Source: Candidatus Bathyarchaeota archaeon
GTDB lineage: Archaea > Thermoproteota > Bathyarchaeia > Bathyarchaeales > Bathycorpusculaceae
DNA length: 64,000 nucleotides
Assembly: GCA_963720565.1 (NCBI GenBank)
Contig: CAVRFW010000005.1
Coordinates: forward strand, 96,001-160,000
Direction: 5' to 3'
Part shown: one piece after another, positions 34,314 to 46,017 of the stretch
How positions within the stretch are numbered: position 1 is the stretch's first letter
Layout of the letters: every line of letters begins with the position of its first letter
Notes under the pieces: generated by a model
The model's database searches: none
What the model was told of the DNA's origin: nothing
What the model saw: only the letters and a program-made list of their open reading frames with translations
Position numbers and translations under genes: made by a program

Positions 34314-34601
34314 TTGCATATACATGAATTTCAAGAGATGATGAGATACCTGTACATTCACAGGGATTCTGATCGTGGAGTAGAAGGAACGTATGATTGG
34401 CTTGTGGAGGAAGTTGAGGAATTGGGAGAAGCTTTGAAAGGAGAGGACAGTGAAGCTACTCAAAGAGAATTTGCCGATGTAATCGCGTGGCTATCGTCTC
34501 TTGCGAACATCGTTGGAATTGACCTTGAAAAGGCTGCAATAGAAAAGTATCGAAACGTGTGTCCAAAATGCGAAAAAGCACCGTGTCAATGCGAGTTTTA
34601 G
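34314..34601 (+). CDS. MazG-like nucleotide pyrophosphohydrolase
   Basis: WLVEEVEELGEAL...EFADV, C-terminal CPKC..PCQC. Confidence 0.9.
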   Translation: MHIHEFQEMMRYLYIHRDSDRGVEGTYDWLVEEVEELGEALKGEDSEATQREFADVIAWLSSLANIVGIDLEKAAIEKYRNVCPKCEKAPCQCEF

Positions 34602-34861
34602 GCGACCAGGCGTTTTTGCCCTAAGCCAGTCAATTCCCAAACATAGGGGCGGTTCCCCTTCCGAAGGACAGTGTTTTCTTTCTCAAGCAACTTCAGATGG
34701 TGCGCTACAACACCATATGACAATGATGTTTCTTTTGCGATGCTAGAAGCATCAGAGATTCTTGTTTCAAGAAGGTTCAGCAACACAGTTCGCGCTTTGA
34801 GACCGTTTCTAATGTTTTTAATCTGCTGCATATAGGCGTTAGGATGGTAGGTTTTCTTGAT
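34598..34861 (-). CDS. Small winged-HTH protein
   Basis: ASSIAKETSLSYGVVAHHLKLLE...WELT. ATG at 34831; possible ATC start at 34861. Confidence 0.8.
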   Translation of the reverse strand: MKKTYHPNAYMQQIKNIRNGLKARTVLLNLLETRISDASSIAKETSLSYGVVAHHLKLLEKENTVLRKGNRPYVWELTGLGQKRLVA

Positions 34862-39574: not shown

Positions 39575-40417
39575 ATGCAATTAGCATCCGACACTCTAGA
39601 AATAGACTTGTCAGAAGCCCTTACAAGAATCAAACTTTTCATTGAAGAATACATTAATAACGCGGGCGTAGATGGCATAGTGCTCGGTCTATCCGGTGGC
39701 ATTGACAGTAGCGTAGTGGCTGCGCTATGCAGCCTTTCGATAGGAGGAAACCGAGTGTTGGGTCTCCTGCTACCGGAGAGAGAAACGTACGACCCCAAAG
39801 ACATTGACGATGCAAAGTTCGTTGCAGAAAAATTCGGCATACAAACACAGGTCTGTGATATCACGCCTACGTTGAAAAGCCTCTATGCCACCATTCCTGT
39901 TTTTGATTCGAAAGAAAAGATTTGCAAAGGCAACATAAAAGCAAGAGCCAGAATGATTTACTTATACTACTATGCGAACAAATTGAACAGGATTGTATGC
40001 GGCAGCTCCGACAAGTCGGAAACAATGATGGGATACTTTACTAAATGGGGAGATGCAGCGGCAGACATAGCGCCAATTATGGATTTGTATAAGACCCAAG
40101 TCCGAAAACTCGCCATTCATTTGGGATTTCCTGATAAACTCGCAAACAAACCGGCTACTCCTGCTTTGTGGCCTGGTCAGCTTGCCGAAACAGAACTCGG
40201 CGTTAAATACGAAATCCTTGACCTTATTCTTTATGGACTTGAAAGGTTTATGACTGTGGAAGAAATAGCGCATCAATTAAACGTCAATCTTACTCTTGTT
40301 AAGAAAGTCAGAAACAAATGGCTATCAGCAGAGCACAAAAGGAGAACTCCATTGACAGTTAAGCTTGGATACAGAACCGTGGGAATAGATTTTCGACTCC
40401 CAAGAAGCGGAAACTAA
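39575..40417 (+). CDS. nadE: NAD+ synthetase (single domain)
   Basis: GLSGGIDS, NIKARARM, GYFTKWGD, SAEHKRR. Confidence 0.96.
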   Translation: MQLASDTLEIDLSEALTRIKLFIEEYINNAGVDGIVLGLSGGIDSSVVAALCSLSIGGNRVLGLLLPERETYDPKDIDDAKFVAEKFGIQTQVCDITPTLKSLYATIPVFDSKEKICKGNIKARARMIYLYYYANKLNRIVCGSSDKSETMMGYFTKWGDAAADIAPIMDLYKTQVRKLAIHLGFPDKLANKPATPALWPGQLAETELGVKYEILDLILYGLERFMTVEEIAHQLNVNLTLVKKVRNKWLSAEHKRRTPLTVKLGYRTVGIDFRLPRSGN

Positions 40418-40439: not shown

Positions 40440-41270
40440 ATGGAAAAAATCAGAATTGCTCTTGCACAGATTAACTCTAAACGTCAAAACAAGAAAGAGA
40501 ACCTTCAGAAAATCGAAGAATTCACCAAGAAAGCTAGAAATCAAGCTGCTGACCTAATTGTTTTTCCAGAACTCTCTCTAACCGGATATGTCATGAGAGA
40601 TCAAGTTTATGAACAGGCTGAAACAATACCTGGTCCATCGAGCAGAATAATAGAAAGTATATCAAGAAAGAATGGGATAGCCATTGTTTTTGGCATGCCA
40701 GAGCTTAGCAAGAAGGCCAAAGCAACAATATTCAACACTGCTGTCTTTGTGGGAACAAGAGGCTTAATCGGAAAGTATCGAAAAATGTATCTACCCACCC
40801 ATAGCGTCTTCGAGGAGAAAAGATATTTCCGCCCCGGACACCAAACAGTTACACTTAACACAGCCTTAGGCAATATTGGCCTCTGCATATGCTACGACCT
40901 GTTTTTTCCAGAGGTGTGTCGCCTTACCCGGTTGAAAGGTGCACAACTAATAGTAGTCATCTCAGCTTCGCCAGCAGTTCGCAAAAACTACTTTGAGGTT
41001 TTAACCACTGCTAGAGCTCTCGAAAATACGGCTTTCCTCGCATATGTTAATATGGTAGGTGTGGAGGACGGCCTGCAATTTTGGGGTGGAAGCAGACTTA
41101 TCGGACCAACGGGGGACCTTCTAGCAATAGCAAAGTATGACCAGGAAGACCTCGTTGTCTGCGACTTAAACTACAACGATATAAGAACAGCCGAACCCTC
41201 TATCCCCACACTCAGAGACCTGCGCCCAGAACTCTTCGATGAGCTCAAGAGAGAGTCAGAGCAATTCTAA
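40440..41270 (+). CDS. Carbon-nitrogen hydrolase (nitrilase superfamily)
   Basis: Glu-Lys-Cys triad FPEL, YRKMYL, ICYD; RALEN. Confidence 0.93.
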   Translation: MEKIRIALAQINSKRQNKKENLQKIEEFTKKARNQAADLIVFPELSLTGYVMRDQVYEQAETIPGPSSRIIESISRKNGIAIVFGMPELSKKAKATIFNTAVFVGTRGLIGKYRKMYLPTHSVFEEKRYFRPGHQTVTLNTALGNIGLCICYDLFFPEVCRLTRLKGAQLIVVISASPAVRKNYFEVLTTARALENTAFLAYVNMVGVEDGLQFWGGSRLIGPTGDLLAIAKYDQEDLVVCDLNYNDIRTAEPSIPTLRDLRPELFDELKRESEQF

Positions 41271-41323
41271 CTCACGAACTCGTAAGAACCACAGGAATGT
41301 GCAAAATGCAGTAACGAATGAAA

Positions 41324-41405
41324 TCACAGTAATATCACAATGCCTGTGATATCATAGAATCACCAAATGCATGAACCGTGATGCTTTGTGACAAGTGATG
41401 TCACA
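41324..41405. repeat. TGTGA/TCACA array A
   Basis: Pentamers at 41324, 41335, 41345, 41387, 41401; near-palindromes TGTGATATCATA (41345) and AGTGATGTCACA (41394). Confidence 0.75.
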
Positions 41406-41840
41406 CTATTCAGAGGAGCCCTCTGAAATAGAGTTTTCTCTCCGAGAAACCAATCAAACGAAAGTCGAATAGATAAGAACGGCAGAAAGCGTGAAAACTT
41501 GATTAGCAAGCTCTTACGGAACAACTATGTCAGAAAAACGAAGAGGCTAACAAGTTTCAAACAGTCAAAACAAATAACTACCAATTAGAACGCCTTTCAA
41601 GTCCAATAAAAAACGTCAAAAAATACCTCTTATCAATATTATAACCCTAGAATCATTTCAAAACAATTAATAGCCACATTTCTAACCCTTTTTGCGAATT
41701 AAACCAAAATTATGAACTTTTCGATACTAAAATAGAGCTGAAGAGAGATTTTGGCCTGCTTTTTGGAGCCTACGAAAGATTTAAAGATGAAGCGCGTATA
41801 CAAAATTGTATGCATTTAACATTACCGAGGAGCAACGAAA

Positions 41841-42320
41841 ATGAAACTAAAAGAAGGCGTTCAAGCATGGCTAAATGGAGCATTAAGTGACCCCGTTGTC
41901 AAAATTCTCGCTAAAAATAGTCAATTAACAAGAACGCAACTCGAAACATTGCTCATAGACGTTTTAGCCGAGAATTTATCAAATAAACAGCTAAATTACG
42001 ACGAAAAAGCCAGATTAAGGCTAACAAACGCCAAAATAAGTCGCGGTGCCTTCAACAGGACATTAAAACAGTCAAAAGAAAATGTCATAAAATCGATCTA
42101 CACAGTTCTCCTTCTAGGCTACTTAGGCATCTTTGAAAGCACAACTTTAGACCCCTACATCGAGATAGCTAACAAATTACACGAGTACATTGAAGCTCAC
42201 AAAGGCAACCTCAATGAGGGTGAAGATACATAAGACCATCTAAAAGTCATTGATATCATCAGAAAGGAGCTAGAAACGAGCCTAAAACAGCTCTCAAGTC
42301 CATCAAAAGACACTCTGTGA
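41841..42320 (+). CDS. Uncharacterised HTH-like protein (in-frame TAA at 42231-42233; the frame stays open to TGA at 42320)
   Basis: LTRTQLETLL...YDEKARLR...ISRGAFNRTLKQ resembles a helix-turn-helix; 28 further helical codons follow the TAA. Confidence 0.7.
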
Positions 42321-42603
42321 CGTCACAAATCACAACTTTCAACGCAAGATAAAGCTCGTGAAAGCATAAGAACAAACAAGCCAAAATTCACAAACTAAAT
42401 ACCAAAATAAGCTTAAAACAAAGACATTCTCCACGACGGAATTTTCGGAAATTATTGGCATAGTTCCCTGCTCAACTGTGATATGTGATGTCATAGGTGA
42501 ATTTTCGAAGAAAGCACCATAAAACTTAAATCTTTACCATAAGACTGTGATATGTGATGCAACAAACTAGGTCACATACAAATCACAGAGGGGAATCTTG
42601 TGA
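42316..42603. repeat. TGTGA/TCACA array B
   Basis: Perfect palindrome TGTGACGTCACA at 42316-42327; exact 16-bp direct repeat ACTGTGATATGTGATG at 42475 and 42544; 11 pentamers in ~290 bp. Confidence 0.85.
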
Positions 42604-43313
42604 TTGAGCTCTCAGCAACACTCGTTATAGTGTTAATCTTGGTCACAATAGGAGCCTCGATAGAGTACTACAGGCAAATCCGAAAGACGCAAAGAGAATA
42701 TGAAAATGCCAAGAGCGCTGTTGAAAACATTGTTCTGAGTTTCAATAGAGAACTAAGAAGGGAAGCGGAAAGACTAGAGTTAGTAGCGTATAAGGTCGAG
42801 GGCAACAATGCTAGAGAAGACACCAACAGCAAGCGAATTGATTCAATCGAGATGAAAGTCGAGCCCTTGGAAAGTCTTCTTAGCGCGACATCAGAAAACA
42901 ATCAAGGCATTGTGTCGAAAGTCACCGAAGTCGATACTAAAGTGCAAGGACTCGAATTAGCCCAGGAGAGGCTAATAGCCAAAATCACGGGATTAGAGGA
43001 TGAAATGCAGAAATTCACATTCGCCCCTGAAATGAAGAGCGAGCCAGTTATGCCTATCAGAAGAGACAAGGCATTAGCGACATTGACTGAAACAGAGATA
43101 ATGGTGTTGGAAATGTTGTTATCTGAGGGCTCGAAAACGGCTCCTGAGATAAAAGAGAGAGTAGGACTCAGCAGGGAACATACCGCAAGACTGATGAAGA
43201 AACTCTATGAGGAGGGCTACCTGGAAAGAGAAACCGGTAAGATTCCATTCAGGTACAGCGCCAAACAAGAATTGGAAAAATTCCTAAAGAAGCCCGAAAA
43301 CCAACAGGCCTGA
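42600..43313 (+). CDS. Predicted membrane-anchored coiled-coil protein with C-terminal winged helix (MarR-like)
   Basis: N-terminal hydrophobic helix LSATLVIVLILVTIGA, long heptad-rich middle, LTETEIMVLEML...TAPEIKERVGLSREHTARLMKKLYEEGYLER. Confidence 0.85.
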   Translation: MIELSATLVIVLILVTIGASIEYYRQIRKTQREYENAKSAVENIVLSFNRELRREAERLELVAYKVEGNNAREDTNSKRIDSIEMKVEPLESLLSATSENNQGIVSKVTEVDTKVQGLELAQERLIAKITGLEDEMQKFTFAPEMKSEPVMPIRRDKALATLTETEIMVLEMLLSEGSKTAPEIKERVGLSREHTARLMKKLYEEGYLERETGKIPFRYSAKQELEKFLKKPENQQA

Positions 43314-43551
43314 CTTACCCAGAGAGGACGATTTTTTGCTTAAGTGTTTTTGTTCCTCCATCTACTTAAGAAATTTCAGCGAGGCGTGAGGACGGTAATT
43401 AACTCTCCAGTGTCTGTCTAGATAATCCGAGTGGCGAGAGGTTTTTGTTTGGACCACAAACTTATTCTTGGTTCCAATATAGCGTGCATGAGGGCATCTT
43501 AGGTAAATTCCCAGATTACTTGCTCTCTTGAGCACCGGGACGCGTTAAATC

Positions 43552-43995
43552 TTACTTCAACTGTTTCTGAATTATTGCCTGCGGAGCGCTTGGCGCAATC
43601 TTGTATTTCATGTTATTAGGTCCTCCTGTTCTCAGAAGAAAACCCCTGTTAGACATTCTAGCAAGATATGTTGAGACCGTACTGAGGCTTATTGGCTCTT
43701 TTAGTTCCTGTTCATAGACCGCCTGGATGTCTTTCGAAGAAAACCAAATCAAGGGAAAACTTTTCTGCGTTATGAAGCGCATTTTGTCAAATCTGGAAAG
43801 ATTATTCTTCGCGCCAGGGTTGGCAGCGTTAGAGACTGTGGCTTCTTCCGGCATGCCGCCTAGTAATTCAACGAGATCCAGTAATCGAACTGCTTTGTCT
43901 CGCGTTATTTGTCCCTCGAATGCGATAGTGTATCGATTACCTTCGCTATCGAATAGCTCTATACGCATTTTTCGAGCCGGCATTGAGTGGCTCAC
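43552..43995 (-). CDS. Uncharacterised protein with C-terminal winged helix
   Basis: FSSKDIQAVYEQE...ISLSTVSTYLARMSNRGFLLR...YKI; divergent from cdc6. Confidence 0.8.
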   Translation of the reverse strand: MSHSMPARKMRIELFDSEGNRYTIAFEGQITRDKAVRLLDLVELLGGMPEEATVSNAANPGAKNNLSRFDKMRFITQKSFPLIWFSSKDIQAVYEQELKEPISLSTVSTYLARMSNRGFLLRTGGPNNMKYKIAPSAPQAIIQKQLK

Positions 43996-44006
43996 CCTAA
44001 GAGATG

Positions 44007-44318
44007 TTCACAAGCTTTACACTTCACAACTTATAGCTGTTATGGTTAAATCAGCAGCAGTGAAAAGTCAATTTCAGTTCGGAAAAGATGAAATAGGCTG
44101 AATTTGCACTGTTTTCATAATTACAACCTTCACAAGAATCTGATTTCACCAAACAAATTCATGCTTTACTCAATTATGTATTTGCATTGGAAGCGTAGGG
44201 GGGTCTTCTTCACAGAAAAGGACCATAAAAATAGTTATTGTATTAGAAATAGAGGTTGAAATGAGGCAGTTTTATTGCAAATTCACACGGACTTCACAAA
44301 ATGTGAACAGTATGTGAT
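44007..44318. repeat. TTCACA/TGTGAA array C on the origin flank
   Basis: TTCACA at 44007, 44023, 44129, 44209, 44282, 44293; TGTGA at 44302 and 44313; palindrome TTCACAAAATGTGAA at 44293-44307. Confidence 0.7.
44181..44204 (+). promoter_or_regulatory. ORB-like element
   Basis: TTTGCATTGGAAGCGTAGGGGGGT (degenerate TTCCAnTGGAAA core plus G-string). Confidence 0.5.
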
Positions 44319-44447
44319 TTGAAGGGTTACATACACTATGAAAATAACAAAGTTAGAGTATTTAGAGCAAATGGGATGAAGATGCTAAAAAGTGTCAAAA
44401 TATGTAAGAATGTTCAAAGTCTTTCAATAGAATGGGATAAGACAGCC

Positions 44448-44468
44448 ACCCCTTCATTTCCTCTCGAA
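44448..44468 (-). promoter_or_regulatory. ORB element
   Basis: Minus strand TTCGAGAGGAAATGAAGGGGT. Confidence 0.7.
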
Positions 44469-44630
44469 AAGTTTCTGAGAAGAAGACAATAACAGGGTGG
44501 AAAAAAGATTAGTTGAGGATTATCTAAAAAAATGAATAACAAATACTTATTATATGCTCAGTGTTGCTTAGGCTTCAGAGTATATTTCCTATTAAAGGAA
44601 ATCATAACAAATTCTTAATAGTATAGTATA

Positions 44631-44652
44631 TTTCCAGTAGAAACTTTGGGGT
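44631..44652 (+). promoter_or_regulatory. ORB element
   Basis: TTTCCAGTAGAAACTTTGGGGT. Confidence 0.75.
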
Positions 44653-44753
44653 GTGTGGCTGTCTTTACTTTACCGCCTGCTGCTTTAAGCTTACATCACA
44701 TTTTAGGATTGTCGTGCTTCAAAACTACTTTTTTGTACTGCATCCTTTATCTG

Positions 44754-44773
44754 CTCCACTCGAAATAACGGTG
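44754..44773 (+). promoter_or_regulatory. ORB-like element just upstream of cdc6
   Basis: CTCCACTCGAAATAACGGTG. Confidence 0.5.
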
Positions 44774-44799
44774 TTGCCTTTGAAAGTGGTGGGTGCAAA

Positions 44800-46017
44800 A
44801 TGGGAAGTCATAGCACAATTGATGGAATATTCGAAAATTTCGTGAAGAGTGCCCAACTATTTAGAGATCGAGAGGTACTCAGGCACGACTATCTTCCTGA
44901 AAGCCTGCCTCACAGAGAAGAGCAAATTAGGCTTCTAGGTGAAACAGTGGCGCCAGTTTTGAAAGACGCTCGTTGTTCAAACATTTTCATTTACGGCAAA
45001 ACAGGTACAGGTAAGACTGCTGTGACCAAATACGTTTTGGGTCATTTGGAGACGAAAGCAAAGGAGTACGGTGCGCCAGTTAGATTTTCTTATGTTAACT
45101 GCAGGATGACAGGGTCAGCGTATAGAGTTTTTGCAAGTCTTACCCAGAGTCTGGGGATGTCTGTTCCTTTTACGGGGTTGTCTGTGGGAGAAGTTTTTGA
45201 TAGGTTTCGAGGGAGATTGGATTCTTCCCGAACTAATTTCATAGCTGTCTTAGATGAGATTGATGCCTTGATAAAAGATCGCGGAGATAGCGTTCTTTAC
45301 GAGCTAACCCGGATTAATGAAGGTCTCAGCAAGAGCAAGTTTTCCCTTATCGGTATATCCAATGACCTTCGATTGAAAGAGTTTCTGGACCCGCGCGTTT
45401 TTAGTTCATTAAGCGAGGAAGAAATAGTTTTCAGACCTTATGATGCAAGCGAATTGCGGAACATTCTTCTTGAGCGTTCAAAGTTGTCCTTCCACGAGGG
45501 TTCTCTTTCCGATGCAGCTTTGAGCATTTGCTCAGCCTTAGCTGCGGCAGAACATGGAGATGCTAGGCGTGCTCTTGATTTATTACGTGTTGCAGGTGAG
45601 GTTGCTGAGCGACGAGGTTCGAAACTGGTTTCTGAAGAACATGTTAGAGAGGCAGAGAAGCATATTGAGCATGACAGAGTCGTGGAAGCGTTGAAGAATT
45701 TGACTTTGCATTCAAAGCTTGTGCTTCTTAGTGTTTACCGTTTGAGTAAGGCGAGTGCAACTACTGGTGAGATTTTTGATGTTTACAGTCAACTCTGTGG
45801 CGAACTGGGATCCGGGCTCCTTACTCAGAGGCGTCTTGGCACTTTAATTAATGAACTTGACTCGATGGGTCTTGTGAATGCAAAAGTCGTGAGTATGGGG
45901 CGGTATGGTCGCACAAAGAAGATTAGGCTTGAGATATCACGGACTCTTGTCAAGGATGTTTTCCACGGTGATGCTCGACTAGGGCGCTTCTTCGATCCTA
46001 TCCGTAATTCCCTTTAG
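44800..46017 (+). CDS. cdc6: Orc1/Cdc6 replication initiator
   Basis: LPHREEQI, YGKTGTGKT, VLDEID, HGDARRALDLLR, C-terminal wH with GRYGRT. Confidence 0.97.
   Translation: MGSHSTIDGIFENFVKSAQLFRDREVLRHDYLPESLPHREEQIRLLGETVAPVLKDARCSNIFIYGKTGTGKTAVTKYVLGHLETKAKEYGAPVRFSYVNCRMTGSAYRVFASLTQSLGMSVPFTGLSVGEVFDRFRGRLDSSRTNFIAVLDEIDALIKDRGDSVLYELTRINEGLSKSKFSLIGISNDLRLKEFLDPRVFSSLSEEEIVFRPYDASELRNILLERSKLSFHEGSLSDAALSICSALAAAEHGDARRALDLLRVAGEVAERRGSKLVSEEHVREAEKHIEHDRVVEALKNLTLHSKLVLLSVYRLSKASATTGEIFDVYSQLCGELGSGLLTQRRLGTLINELDSMGLVNAKVVSMGRYGRTKKIRLEISRTLVKDVFHGDARLGRFFDPIRNSL

What the first reader, a model, noticed from the sequence alone, without database searches (positions are those of the whole stretch)
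41320..44780. Candidate origin-tethering / segregation system: three HTH genes interleaved with phased TGTGA/TCACA arrays next to oriC
Seen: between the nitrilase and cdc6 lie three uncharacterised helix-turn-helix proteins (41841, 42600, 43552). The intergenic gaps carry 24 exact TGTGA/TCACA pentamers in three clusters (5 in ~85 bp, 11 in ~290 bp, 8 in ~310 bp). A given 5-mer is expected roughly once per 500 bp on either strand under uniform composition. Pairs recur at 7-bp spacing (42323/42330, 42477/42484, 42546/42553) and 11-bp spacing (41324/41335, 42572/42583, 44283/44294, 44302/44313). Known: centromere-like arrays plus DNA-binding proteins near origins underlie ParABS, Sulfolobus SegAB and Bacillus RacA/ram. 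No ParA/MinD ATPase is encoded in this window. Inference: an ATPase-independent, or trans-ATPase, origin organisation module.
Basis: partly seen in the sequence, partly recalled or inferred. Interest (0 to 1): 0.85.

Follow-up and report, generated by a model that had tools for sequence, protein, structure and literature searches.

The report
Membrane-anchored binder of origin-side arrays
Beside the replication origin of this uncultured archaeon, clusters of a short DNA word travel through evolution with a membrane-anchored DNA-binding protein and survive even inside or after deletion of neighbouring genes, so they may pin the origin region to the cell membrane, though no binding has been tested.

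Summary
The 24 pentamers and their spacings are real and are the densest such clusters in this Bathyarchaeia genome. They are two motifs, not one. Type I (YGTGAY/RTCACR, 41323-42604) tracks gene B (membrane helix, coiled coil, winged helix with invariant R-E-x-x-x-R): two or more sites at gene A's stop in 61 of 65 loci with B and 0 of 20 without. The arrays are also written into neighbouring hypF, nadE and aminotransferase coding sequences and persist when those genes are deleted, so they are not just promoter operators. Type II (TTCACA, in oriC) tracks gene C: 48 of 52 versus 0 of 8. Gene A has its own palindrome and a premature stop here. The genes are lost independently, so they are not one machine. 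Best reading: B holds origin-proximal DNA at the membrane, like RicO/RocS but unrelated (0.5); rival: looping autorepression (0.3). Against: B or its membrane helix is lost in several lineages. Conserved in ammonia-oxidising archaea, so testable. The scan noted this locus before on other genomes.

The parts
39854..39865 (.). Type I palindrome inside nadE; possibly an outlying site
   Evidence: 2 sites against 0.4 expected from synonymous shuffles, 4 of 300
41323..41405 (.). Type I cluster 1 (6 YGTGAY/RTCACR sites). Its right half has the same internal pattern as the array inside an aminotransferase gene that lies here in related lineages, so it is probably a relic of that gene
41780..41786 (+). 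TATA-like box upstream of gene A (inferred from position and conservation)
41796..41813 (.). Gene A's own palindrome (ATACA-N4-TGTAT) at the expected transcription start; probable autoregulatory operator
   Evidence: 74 of 88 distant A loci by strict pattern, misses mostly near variants; present where B is missing; only 2 copies in the genome, the other inside a coding region
41841..42320 (+). Gene A: sigma4/LuxR-like helix-turn-helix plus C-terminal helical hairpin; 159 aa in most relatives, interrupted here by an in-frame TAA at 42231-42233 (130 aa)
   Evidence: found in 120 of 151 class genomes
42316..42334 (.). Type I cluster 2: TGTGAY-RTCACA palindrome plus 7-bp tandem site, overlapping A's ancestral stop codon; the most constant element of the arrays
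   Evidence: A's stop is the TGA of GTGA in 112 of 143 loci with B and 1 of 20 without
42477..42492 (.). Type I cluster 3 (tandem plus partial palindrome) upstream of B's TATA-like box
42525..42530 (+). TATA-like box upstream of gene B (inferred)
42546..42604 (.). Type I cluster 4 over B's expected transcription start, leader and start codon
42600..43313 (+). Gene B, 237 aa: N-terminal membrane helix (res 1-19), ~140-residue coiled-coil stalk, C-terminal winged helix with invariant R192 E193 H194 R197; probable binder of type I sites
   Evidence: 102 of 151 class and 174 of 301 phylum genomes, nearly always single copy
43552..43983 (-). Gene C, ~143 aa (conserved start ATG at 43983): beta-beta-alpha N-terminal domain plus Fur-like winged helix; probable binder of TTCACA
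   Evidence: 92 of 151 class and 199 of 301 phylum genomes
44007..44037 (-). C promoter region: two TTCACA sites just downstream of a TATA-like box (44030-44037)
44129..44307 (.). Five TTCACA/TGTGAA sites bracketing ORB-a at conserved offsets (about -60, +30, +100 to +120)
44182..44203 (+). ORB-a, a degenerate origin recognition box that travels with gene C in rearranged relatives
   Evidence: ORB consensus recalled
44447..44653 (.). Core origin: inverted ORB-b (44447-44468) and ORB-c (44632-44653) around a 73% A+T spacer
   Evidence: architecture as in PMC4010727 passages; origin activity not tested
44754..44771 (+). Conserved mini-ORB-like site before cdc6
   Evidence: interpretation recalled
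44800..46017 (+). orc1/cdc6 initiator
   Evidence: TIGR02928 E 3.5e-123

Best explanation
This is an ancient origin-side block with three separable DNA-binding proteins, each paired with its own motif. The striking part is B with the type I arrays. B dimers (inferred) sit in the membrane by an N-terminal helix and reach the nucleoid on a coiled-coil stalk. Their winged helices bind GTGAY half-sites, read by an R-E-x-x-x-R triad like CRP's (inferred). Several clusters over 1.3-2 kb, centred on the palindrome at A's stop, would be held at once, fixing origin-proximal DNA at the membrane without an ATPase. B probably also damps its own promoter in this lineage, since sites overlap it. C binds TTCACA at its own promoter and around ORB-a, linking C to the initiator. 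A binds its own palindrome. Shown: motifs, co-occurrence, intragenic arrays, domain layout. Inferred: all binding, the tether, and any role in segregation.
For: B-motif pairing: 61 of 65 against 0 of 20 loci; B not found in 31 of 31 genomes of the seven B-less families; a quick Cdc6 tree needs 7 changes of the B-less label, at least 2 forced by well-supported branches. R-E-H-x-x-R in 149 of 150 further homologues; CRP's DNA-contacting triad is Arg180/Glu181/Arg185 (PMC2677863 passages). The one family seen with R changed to K (f36, one locus) has no arrays. Positional, not promoter-bound: enriched over synonymous-codon shuffles inside locus-linked hypF in 13 of 19 rows from B genomes, 0 of 25 unlinked hypF, and 0 sites in the same-position hypF of a B-less genome; inside adjacent nadE in 11 of 15 rows; inside an aminotransferase in 8 of 8 rows; inside B itself in 5 of 5 ammonia oxidisers. 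Arrays outlast deletion of the aminotransferase and of hypF. Where genes separate A from B, arrays stay at A's stop while B's upstream 300 bp often has 0-3 sites. No second cluster or regulon in this genome. B has no sensor domain. When A-B separates from C (f40, f45) it stays 11-32 kb from the cdc6 orthologue in 3 of 3 genomes checked. In the class, a Soj-type ParA occurs in 10 genomes whose B lacks the membrane helix (8 checked directly, 2 judged from alignment start) and in only 1 of the other 92 B genomes.
Against: B is dispensable: lost in several lineages, and only 2 of those 31 genomes have the ParA. The membrane helix is absent in Bathyarchaeia f29 (two genera) and f31 and in f36, f37, f38, f43, f51, f53, f63, f66, mostly with arrays kept; at phylum level these mostly lack that ParA (7 of 276 genomes; f38 1 of 22, f36 0 of 17, f43 0 of 6; strict cut-off). 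In f18, f12, f15 and f27 no ORB or cdc6 lies next to B and the cdc6 orthologue was not found in 9 of 10 genomes, yet the arrays are at their richest, so they do not need this origin. In one f38 genome B lies 190 kb from the cdc6 orthologue, and in one f18 genome a nadE array lies ~490 kb from B. The arrays span 1-2 kb, not the 600-700 kb of ram or ricS sites. The -1 kb cluster is in only 33 of 64 distant loci. hypF enrichment failed in 6 of 19 linked rows and nadE in 4 of 15. In this lineage sites overlap B's promoter, as for a repressor. The ParA contrast rests on one or two events.
Confidence: 0.5

Rival explanations
1. B is a membrane-bound transcription repressor. The distant and intragenic clusters are auxiliary operators that loop DNA around gene A and B's promoter (as lac O2 lies inside lacZ, recalled). 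The locus is three autoregulated regulators with no role in chromosome positioning.
For: Sites flank B's TATA-like box and cover its start in this lineage. Clusters bracket gene A at about -1 kb and 0. A and C each have a private motif at their own promoter. Best Pfam match is TrmB (E 1.1e-9). Arrays persist where the origin is gone or the membrane helix is lost. Arrays stay in cis with A-B when the pair moves.
Against: Up to 28 sites in four clusters, kept inside unrelated genes and after their deletion, is a heavy cost for a regulator with no other target in the genome. Where B is moved off by an insertion, its own upstream region often has almost no sites. Arrays are kept in lineages where A was not found (f9 locus L132, f38). 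There is no sensor domain to explain the membrane anchor.
Confidence: 0.3
2. B with its arrays controls replication timing rather than position: it sequesters or insulates the origin-proximal region at the membrane after initiation, working alongside C, which acts with Cdc6 at ORB-a.
For: Conserved order DP2-...-A-B-C-oriC-cdc6-DP1 in Bathyarchaeia and ammonia oxidisers. C's sites bracket ORB-a at fixed offsets and vanish with C.
Against: Type I sites are at chance level inside oriC. A-B and the arrays persist where the adjacent origin and cdc6 orthologue are missing. Origins in C-less lineages keep ORB-b/c without TTCACA.
Confidence: 0.12
3. All three proteins form one ATPase-independent segregation machine on one array.
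For: Long-range synteny; A and B move together in f40 and f45; ParA sits beside A in f31 and f55.
Against: Independent losses: A and C without B in seven families, A and B without C in f18, f24 and parts of f11, B and C without A in f38. Three different motifs.
Confidence: 0.08

Closest known systems
RicO/ricS of Staphylococcus aureus, RocS of Streptococcus pneumoniae, RacA/ram of Bacillus subtilis (bioRxiv 10.64898/2026.03.06.710092; passages read)
   Same: One DNA-binding head, a coiled coil and, for RicO and RocS, a membrane anchor; specific sites near the origin; ram sites lie inside coding sequences; no dedicated ATPase.
   Different: Reverse order (B: N-terminal integral helix, C-terminal TrmB/MarR-type winged helix; those: N-terminal MerR/MarR-type HTH, C-terminal amphipathic helix or DivIVA binding). 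Their 9-25 sites spread over 600-700 kb; here dense clusters of 6-bp half-sites in 1-2 kb next to the gene. Described in Firmicutes; B is archaeal.
SegAB of Sulfolobus and AspA-ParB-ParA of plasmid pNOB8 (PMC5120986; passages read)
   Same: Archaeal site-specific DNA binder with sites beside its own gene; the same centromere-or-operator ambiguity is stated there for SegB. A SegAB-like pair lies beside gene A in f31 (SegB match E 0.002).
   Different: No Walker-type ATPase at this locus or found in this genome; no profile match of A, B or C to SegB or AspA among solved structures; B is membrane-anchored.
TrmBL1 and the Thermococcales glycolytic motif TATCAC-N5-GTGATA (PMC4706686; passages read)
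   Same: TrmB-type winged helix (PF01978 above cut-off) and a similar GTGAT half-site.
   Different: TrmBL1 is a global regulator with 28 promoter sites. B's sites are confined to one locus, the commonest arrangement in distant relatives is the head-to-head YGTGAY-RTCACR at distance 6 plus 7- and 10/11-bp tandems, and B has a membrane helix and coiled coil instead of a sugar-binding domain.
UBP and the ucm of Sulfolobales origins (PMC12141716; outline, two of three parts of Results, and Discussion read)
   Same: A non-initiator protein with its own motif inside an archaeal origin is the nearest analogue for C and TTCACA; the authors ask whether other lineages have analogues.
   Different: UBP is a beta-rich saddle binding one site midway between the ORB pair and over 300 sites genome-wide. 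C is a winged helix whose sites surround ORB-a and its own promoter, outside the ORB-b/c spacer.
CRP/FNR family (PMC2677863; passages read)
   Same: R-E-x-x-x-R spacing in the recognition helix; TGTGA half-site (CRP site recalled).
   Different: No cyclic-nucleotide domain; HTH_Crp_2 match is below cut-off (E 0.0012); spacer 2 bp rather than 6 bp (recalled).

Membership tests
RacA/RocS/RicO family | N-terminal MerR/MarR-type HTH followed by coiled coil | tested here: not met
   B's winged helix is C-terminal (res 162-222), after the coiled coil
RacA/RocS/RicO family | Membrane anchor on the far end of the coiled coil from the DNA-binding head | tested here: met
   Hydrophobic N-terminal helix, KD 2.38, in 42 of 50 aligned members; three of the misses are start-site truncations, five real losses. 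An integral helix rather than an amphipathic one.
RacA/RocS/RicO family | Sequence homology to the family profile | not tested
   No sequences of these proteins were fetched; no such hit among solved structures at E 0.001
RacA/RocS/RicO family | Specific sites spread over several hundred kb around oriC | tested here: not met
   Only the 10-kb bin holding the locus stands out on contig C5; palindromes in other large contigs cluster at the locus or scatter
RacA/RocS/RicO family | Anchors origins to the membrane in cells | not testable with these tools
   Needs localisation and deletion experiments
ParABS / SegAB partition system | Walker-type ParA/SegA ATPase encoded with the DNA-binding protein | tested here: not met
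   None in the window; best genome hit 22% identity; 0 of 33 genomes of the window's order
ParABS / SegAB partition system | ParB or SegB/ribbon-helix-helix centromere-binding protein | tested here: not met
   A, B and C match neither in Pfam/NCBIfam; a relative's SegB-like protein has no tblastn hit in this genome
ParABS / SegAB partition system | Centromere-like repeated sites near the origin | tested here: met
   (sequence-level only)
TrmB-family regulators | TrmB-type N-terminal winged helix | tested here: inconclusive
   PF01978 38.5 bits over cut-off 25.6, but the domain is C-terminal and MarR and HTH_27 also pass
TrmB-family regulators | Effector-binding domain and a dispersed regulon | tested here: not met
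   No such domain; no second cluster in the genome
UBP/ucm (for gene C) | Beta-rich saddle fold binding between the inverted ORBs | tested here: inconclusive
   C's model is a winged helix, best Z 10.5 to FurB 2o03, rmsd 2.4 over 74 residues; its sites lie outside the ORB-b/c spacer
Archaeal ORB/cdc6 origin | ORB repeats flanking an AT-rich spacer next to orc1/cdc6 | tested here: met
Archaeal ORB/cdc6 origin | Initiation activity | not testable with these tools
   GC skew on C5 turns from negative to weakly positive near the locus, suggestive only

The most novel reading that the evidence does not exclude
B and the type I arrays are an ancestral, ATPase-free centromere-and-tether system of Bathyarchaeia, ammonia-oxidising archaea and their relatives: a single membrane protein grips a 1-2 kb point centromere, coded over whatever genes lie there, so that sister origins part with the growing membrane; lineages that lose the membrane helix switch to a ParA motor.
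Probability: 0.25. Interest if true: 0.9.

Novelty: new variant of a known kind. Interest (0 to 1): 0.72.

Why it matters
How archaea without SegAB or ParAB position and separate their chromosomes is open (PMC5120986 passages), and my searches found no paper on this locus. B is present in 43 of 43 genomes of an ammonia-oxidiser family, where a Soj-type ParA was found in 0 of 39. A named protein, a predicted 6-bp site, predicted contact residues and natural loss-of-site lineages make chromosome-membrane attachment in archaea directly testable. C with TTCACA is also a candidate for the origin accessory factor that the UBP authors asked about. If B is only a looping repressor, it is still an unusual case of operator arrays written over several unrelated genes.

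Tried and rejected
RNA explanation: no Rfam match at E up to 1 in 41000-45000. Regulon or widely spread sites: none in this genome; other palindromes lie in coding regions. One motif for all three gaps: rejected. A as the binder of type I sites: rejected, since A is kept in all 20 B-less loci that lack the arrays. 'Cluster re-formed at a fixed distance after a gene insertion': considered after and dropped, because the intergenic array matches the intragenic one letter-pattern for letter-pattern and is more simply a relic of gene deletion; I did not test the direction on a tree. A-B complex prediction: no answer, score 0.00, controls not folded; not evidence either way. Fold searches: no Foldseek hit at E 0.001 for A or C; A's best Z is 7.3, within the range of common arrangements; no family for A in Pfam or among solved structures. 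Atlas: only unnamed clusters. Whether A's TAA is real: the read lay-out listed 40 of 450 differences and not this position, and no run held half the words, so it is unresolved; no RNA holder listed. Covariation of C's recognition helix with a TTCACA-to-TTAACA shift: seen in f32 (5 loci) and two f2 loci, with counter-examples L131, L164, L213, so only a lead. The bacterial promoter scan is uninformative for an archaeon. Literature searches that found nothing on this locus: (listings only), whose locus tags were guessed from memory and are weak; PMC5898192 had no passage on it. Subscription journals and bioRxiv supplements were not visible and could hold a mention.
Full report
Setting. The window is from a Bathyarchaeia genome: the best relatives of gene A are nearly all records titled Bathyarchaeia or Bathyarchaeota; G000 has 2.09 Mb in 13 contigs and is 88.8% complete. 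The order is DP2, GGGP synthase, Elf1, nadE, nitrilase, A (41841+), B (42600+), C (43983-), an 816-bp gap, cdc6 (44800+), DP1 (DP1, DP2 and GGGP synthase named by inspection). The gap holds three conserved ORB-like boxes, two of them inverted around a 73% A+T spacer (ORB consensus recalled), so it is very probably oriC. Family and genus labels below (f18, g55) are the anonymous ones given by the genome search.

The observation. All 24 pentamers and the listed spacings are present, and these are the densest clusters in the genome. They split into two words. The two gaps around A hold YGTGAY/RTCACR (type I; 6 and 9 sites, 0.8 expected, 0 of 500 shuffles). The oriC gap holds TTCACA/TGTGAA (type II; 7 sites, 0.9 expected, 0 of 500). 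Each word is at chance level in the other's gaps. In alignments of 36-41 close relatives the sites are conserved while the DNA between them is not. A third element, ATACA-N4-TGTAT, sits just after A's TATA-like box (41796-41813).

The proteins. B has a hydrophobic helix at residues 1-19, about 140 residues of coiled coil and a C-terminal winged helix. In a 50-row alignment of 25% mean identity the invariant columns are R192, E193, H194, R197 and Y219; R-E-H-x-x-R is in 149 of 150 further homologues. This is the spacing of CRP's base-contacting Arg180/Glu181/Arg185 (PMC2677863 passages), whose half-site TGTGA I recall. C folds as a beta-beta-alpha domain, a linker and a winged helix (pLDDT 75.8; Z 10.5 to FurB). 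A folds as a helical protein whose first 100 residues resemble sigma4/LuxR HTH domains at Z 6-7.3, a weak match. A is cut by an in-frame TAA here, while 80 of 80 close relatives have 147-159 aa; error or real mutation is unresolved.

Which protein goes with which motif. In the same 151 class genomes A was found in 120, B in 102 and C in 92. Seven families keep A and/or C but B was found in 0 of their 31 genomes. I fetched 20 of their A loci: none has two type I sites at A's stop, against 61 of 65 distant loci with B; counts over ~2.1 kb were 0-5 against 6-28, median 16. A quick Cdc6 tree of 66 rows needs 7 changes of the B-less label, at least 2 forced by well-supported branches (the careful search did not finish; families lacking this cdc6 are not on it), so the loss is probably repeated. 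One phylum-level family (f36, one locus seen) has K for R192 and no arrays. For type II, 48 of 52 C-cdc6 gaps have two or more sites and 0 of 8 cdc6-upstream gaps in C-less genomes do; within f11 the genera with C have 3-4 sites and those without have 0. C-less origins keep ORB-b/c but lack ORB-a, and in f29 and several phylum families ORB-a stays with C when cdc6 moves. A's palindrome is upstream of 74 of 88 distant A genes, with or without B, and occurs only once more in this genome, in a coding region. So three proteins, three motifs, independent losses.

The type I arrays are positional. Where hypF lies between A and B, clusters sit inside its coding sequence. Against 300 synonymous-codon shuffles, 13 of 19 locus-linked hypF rows from B genomes are enriched (at most 15 of 300), 6 are not, 0 of 25 unlinked hypF are (lowest 72 of 300), and the same-position hypF of a B-less genome has 0 sites. 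Adjacent nadE is enriched in 11 of 15 rows, the 11 more distant or differently oriented nadE rows not at all. An aminotransferase gene between nitrilase and A carries a cluster 1.1 kb before A's stop in 8 of 8 loci tested. In ammonia oxidisers (amoA in 4 of 4 f32 genomes tested) B's own coding sequence is enriched in 5 of 5 loci and A's in 0 of 5. The window's cluster 1 repeats the internal pattern of the aminotransferase array, and f18 genomes without hypF keep both of its clusters as intergenic islands. The simplest reading is that host genes were deleted and only the arrays were kept. These rows are kin and not independent, but three unrelated host genes show it. When insertions separate A from B, the arrays stay at A's stop and B's upstream 300 bp often has 0-3 sites. 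A cluster near -1 kb is present in 33 of 64 distant loci.

Link to the origin and to segregation. A-B-C-oriC-cdc6 is conserved across most of the class and in ammonia oxidisers; B was found in 174 of 301 phylum genomes. Where A-B has left C, it still lies 11, 14 and 32 kb from the cdc6 orthologue in the three genomes checked. A Soj-type ParA was found in 13 of 151 class genomes: 10 whose B lacks the membrane helix (f29 g55/g66, f31), 1 with a helix, 2 without B; the f29 genus that keeps the helix has none. In f31 it lies beside A with a SegB-like partner. This is one or two events, and it does not extend to the phylum, where helix-less B families mostly lack that ParA at a strict cut-off. Against an origin tether in the narrow sense: f18, f12, f15 and f27 have no ORB or cdc6 beside B and the cdc6 orthologue was not found in 9 of 10 genomes, yet their arrays are rich; one f38 genome has B 190 kb from cdc6; one f18 genome has a nadE array ~490 kb from B; B-less lineages mostly have no visible replacement.

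How it most likely works. Shown: motifs, pairings, intragenic selection, domain layouts. Inferred: B binds type I sites (about 0.85); the arrays have a structural role beyond promoter occlusion (about 0.65); that role is to hold origin-proximal DNA at the membrane (0.5 overall). A looping repressor with auxiliary operators explains much of the same data (0.3), and the two can coexist, since sites overlap B's promoter in this lineage. C is most simply an autorepressor whose promoter region also binds the initiator at ORB-a, and possibly an origin accessory factor. A is an autoregulated HTH protein with no other target found.

Comparison and novelty. B works, on this reading, like RicO or RocS but fails their membership on domain order and site spread; it is not ParABS or SegAB, not a TrmBL1-type global regulator, and C does not look like UBP. 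Nine paper searches found no description of the locus (listings and abstract starts only). The scan's earlier notes describe the same locus in other genomes, split between tether and autoregulation; they are not independent support. Verdict: real, new variant of a known kind, interest 0.72.

Noticed in passing
window 42231-42233: In-frame TAA truncates gene A by 29 codons; 80 of 80 close relatives read through. Assembly error or recent nonsense change not resolved.
   Followed up: partly
L031:7478-10016 and 26 other loci: A ~2.6-kb gap between B and C in 27 of 108 loci; in those inspected it holds a HerA-like ATPase and a NurA-like gene (named by inspection and earlier notes). Absent here, with no tblastn hit in this genome; a different HerA/NurA-like pair lies at G000:C1 (L222:373-2915).
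   Followed up: partly
L149:809-1889, L150, L186:95-1120: SegAB-like pair (Soj-type ParA plus 103-aa protein matching SegB at E 0.002) directly upstream of gene A in f31 and 4 kb away in one f20 genome.
   Followed up: partly
L259:4766-8984: In B-less family f55, ParA is directly upstream of A, followed by C and, 1.7 kb on, a ParB-like gene (by inspection).
   Followed up: no
G135, G144, G075, G065, G030, G123, G048, G006, G096: The origin-type cdc6 orthologue, gene C and the ORBs were not found in most sampled genomes of f18, f12, f15 and f27; only a 28-35% paralogue was found. Possible lineages with a different origin or origin-free replication.
   Followed up: partly
L320:8245-8743, L330:2928-3475, L322, L321, L332: In f38, f51 and f53 an inverted ORB pair lies beside a ~100-aa HTH gene instead of cdc6; a similar gene is near C in some Bathyarchaeia loci (L124).
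   Followed up: no
L254-L257, L273 upstream of C: In ammonia oxidisers the motif around the origin is TTAACA (7-11 copies) rather than TTCACA, with a T-to-I/V change in C's recognition helix; counter-examples exist elsewhere.
   Followed up: partly
window 42597-42608 and relatives: In close relatives B's start region most often reads ACG within a type I site (ATCACG), so the start codon may be non-canonical; here it is GTG within TGTGAT.
   Followed up: partly
L222:3005-4646 (G000:C1): A 132-aa protein with a C-like layout (beta-hairpin, helix, winged helix; by inspection, no hit with the C profile) lies beside a MinD-like ATPase and a 124-aa coiled-coil/winged-helix gene.
   Followed up: no
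L255 and L273, gap between B and C: A short AbrB-like open frame (about 50 aa, by inspection) lies between B and C in ammonia oxidisers.
   Followed up: no
L258, L260, L271: In f40 and f45 gene C has left the origin and lies near the PCNA gene (by inspection), without TTCACA arrays.
   Followed up: no
window 34598-34831: 77-aa winged-helix gene (HTH_5, E 1e-4) directly after DP2, kept there in distant relatives (L146, L169).
   Followed up: no
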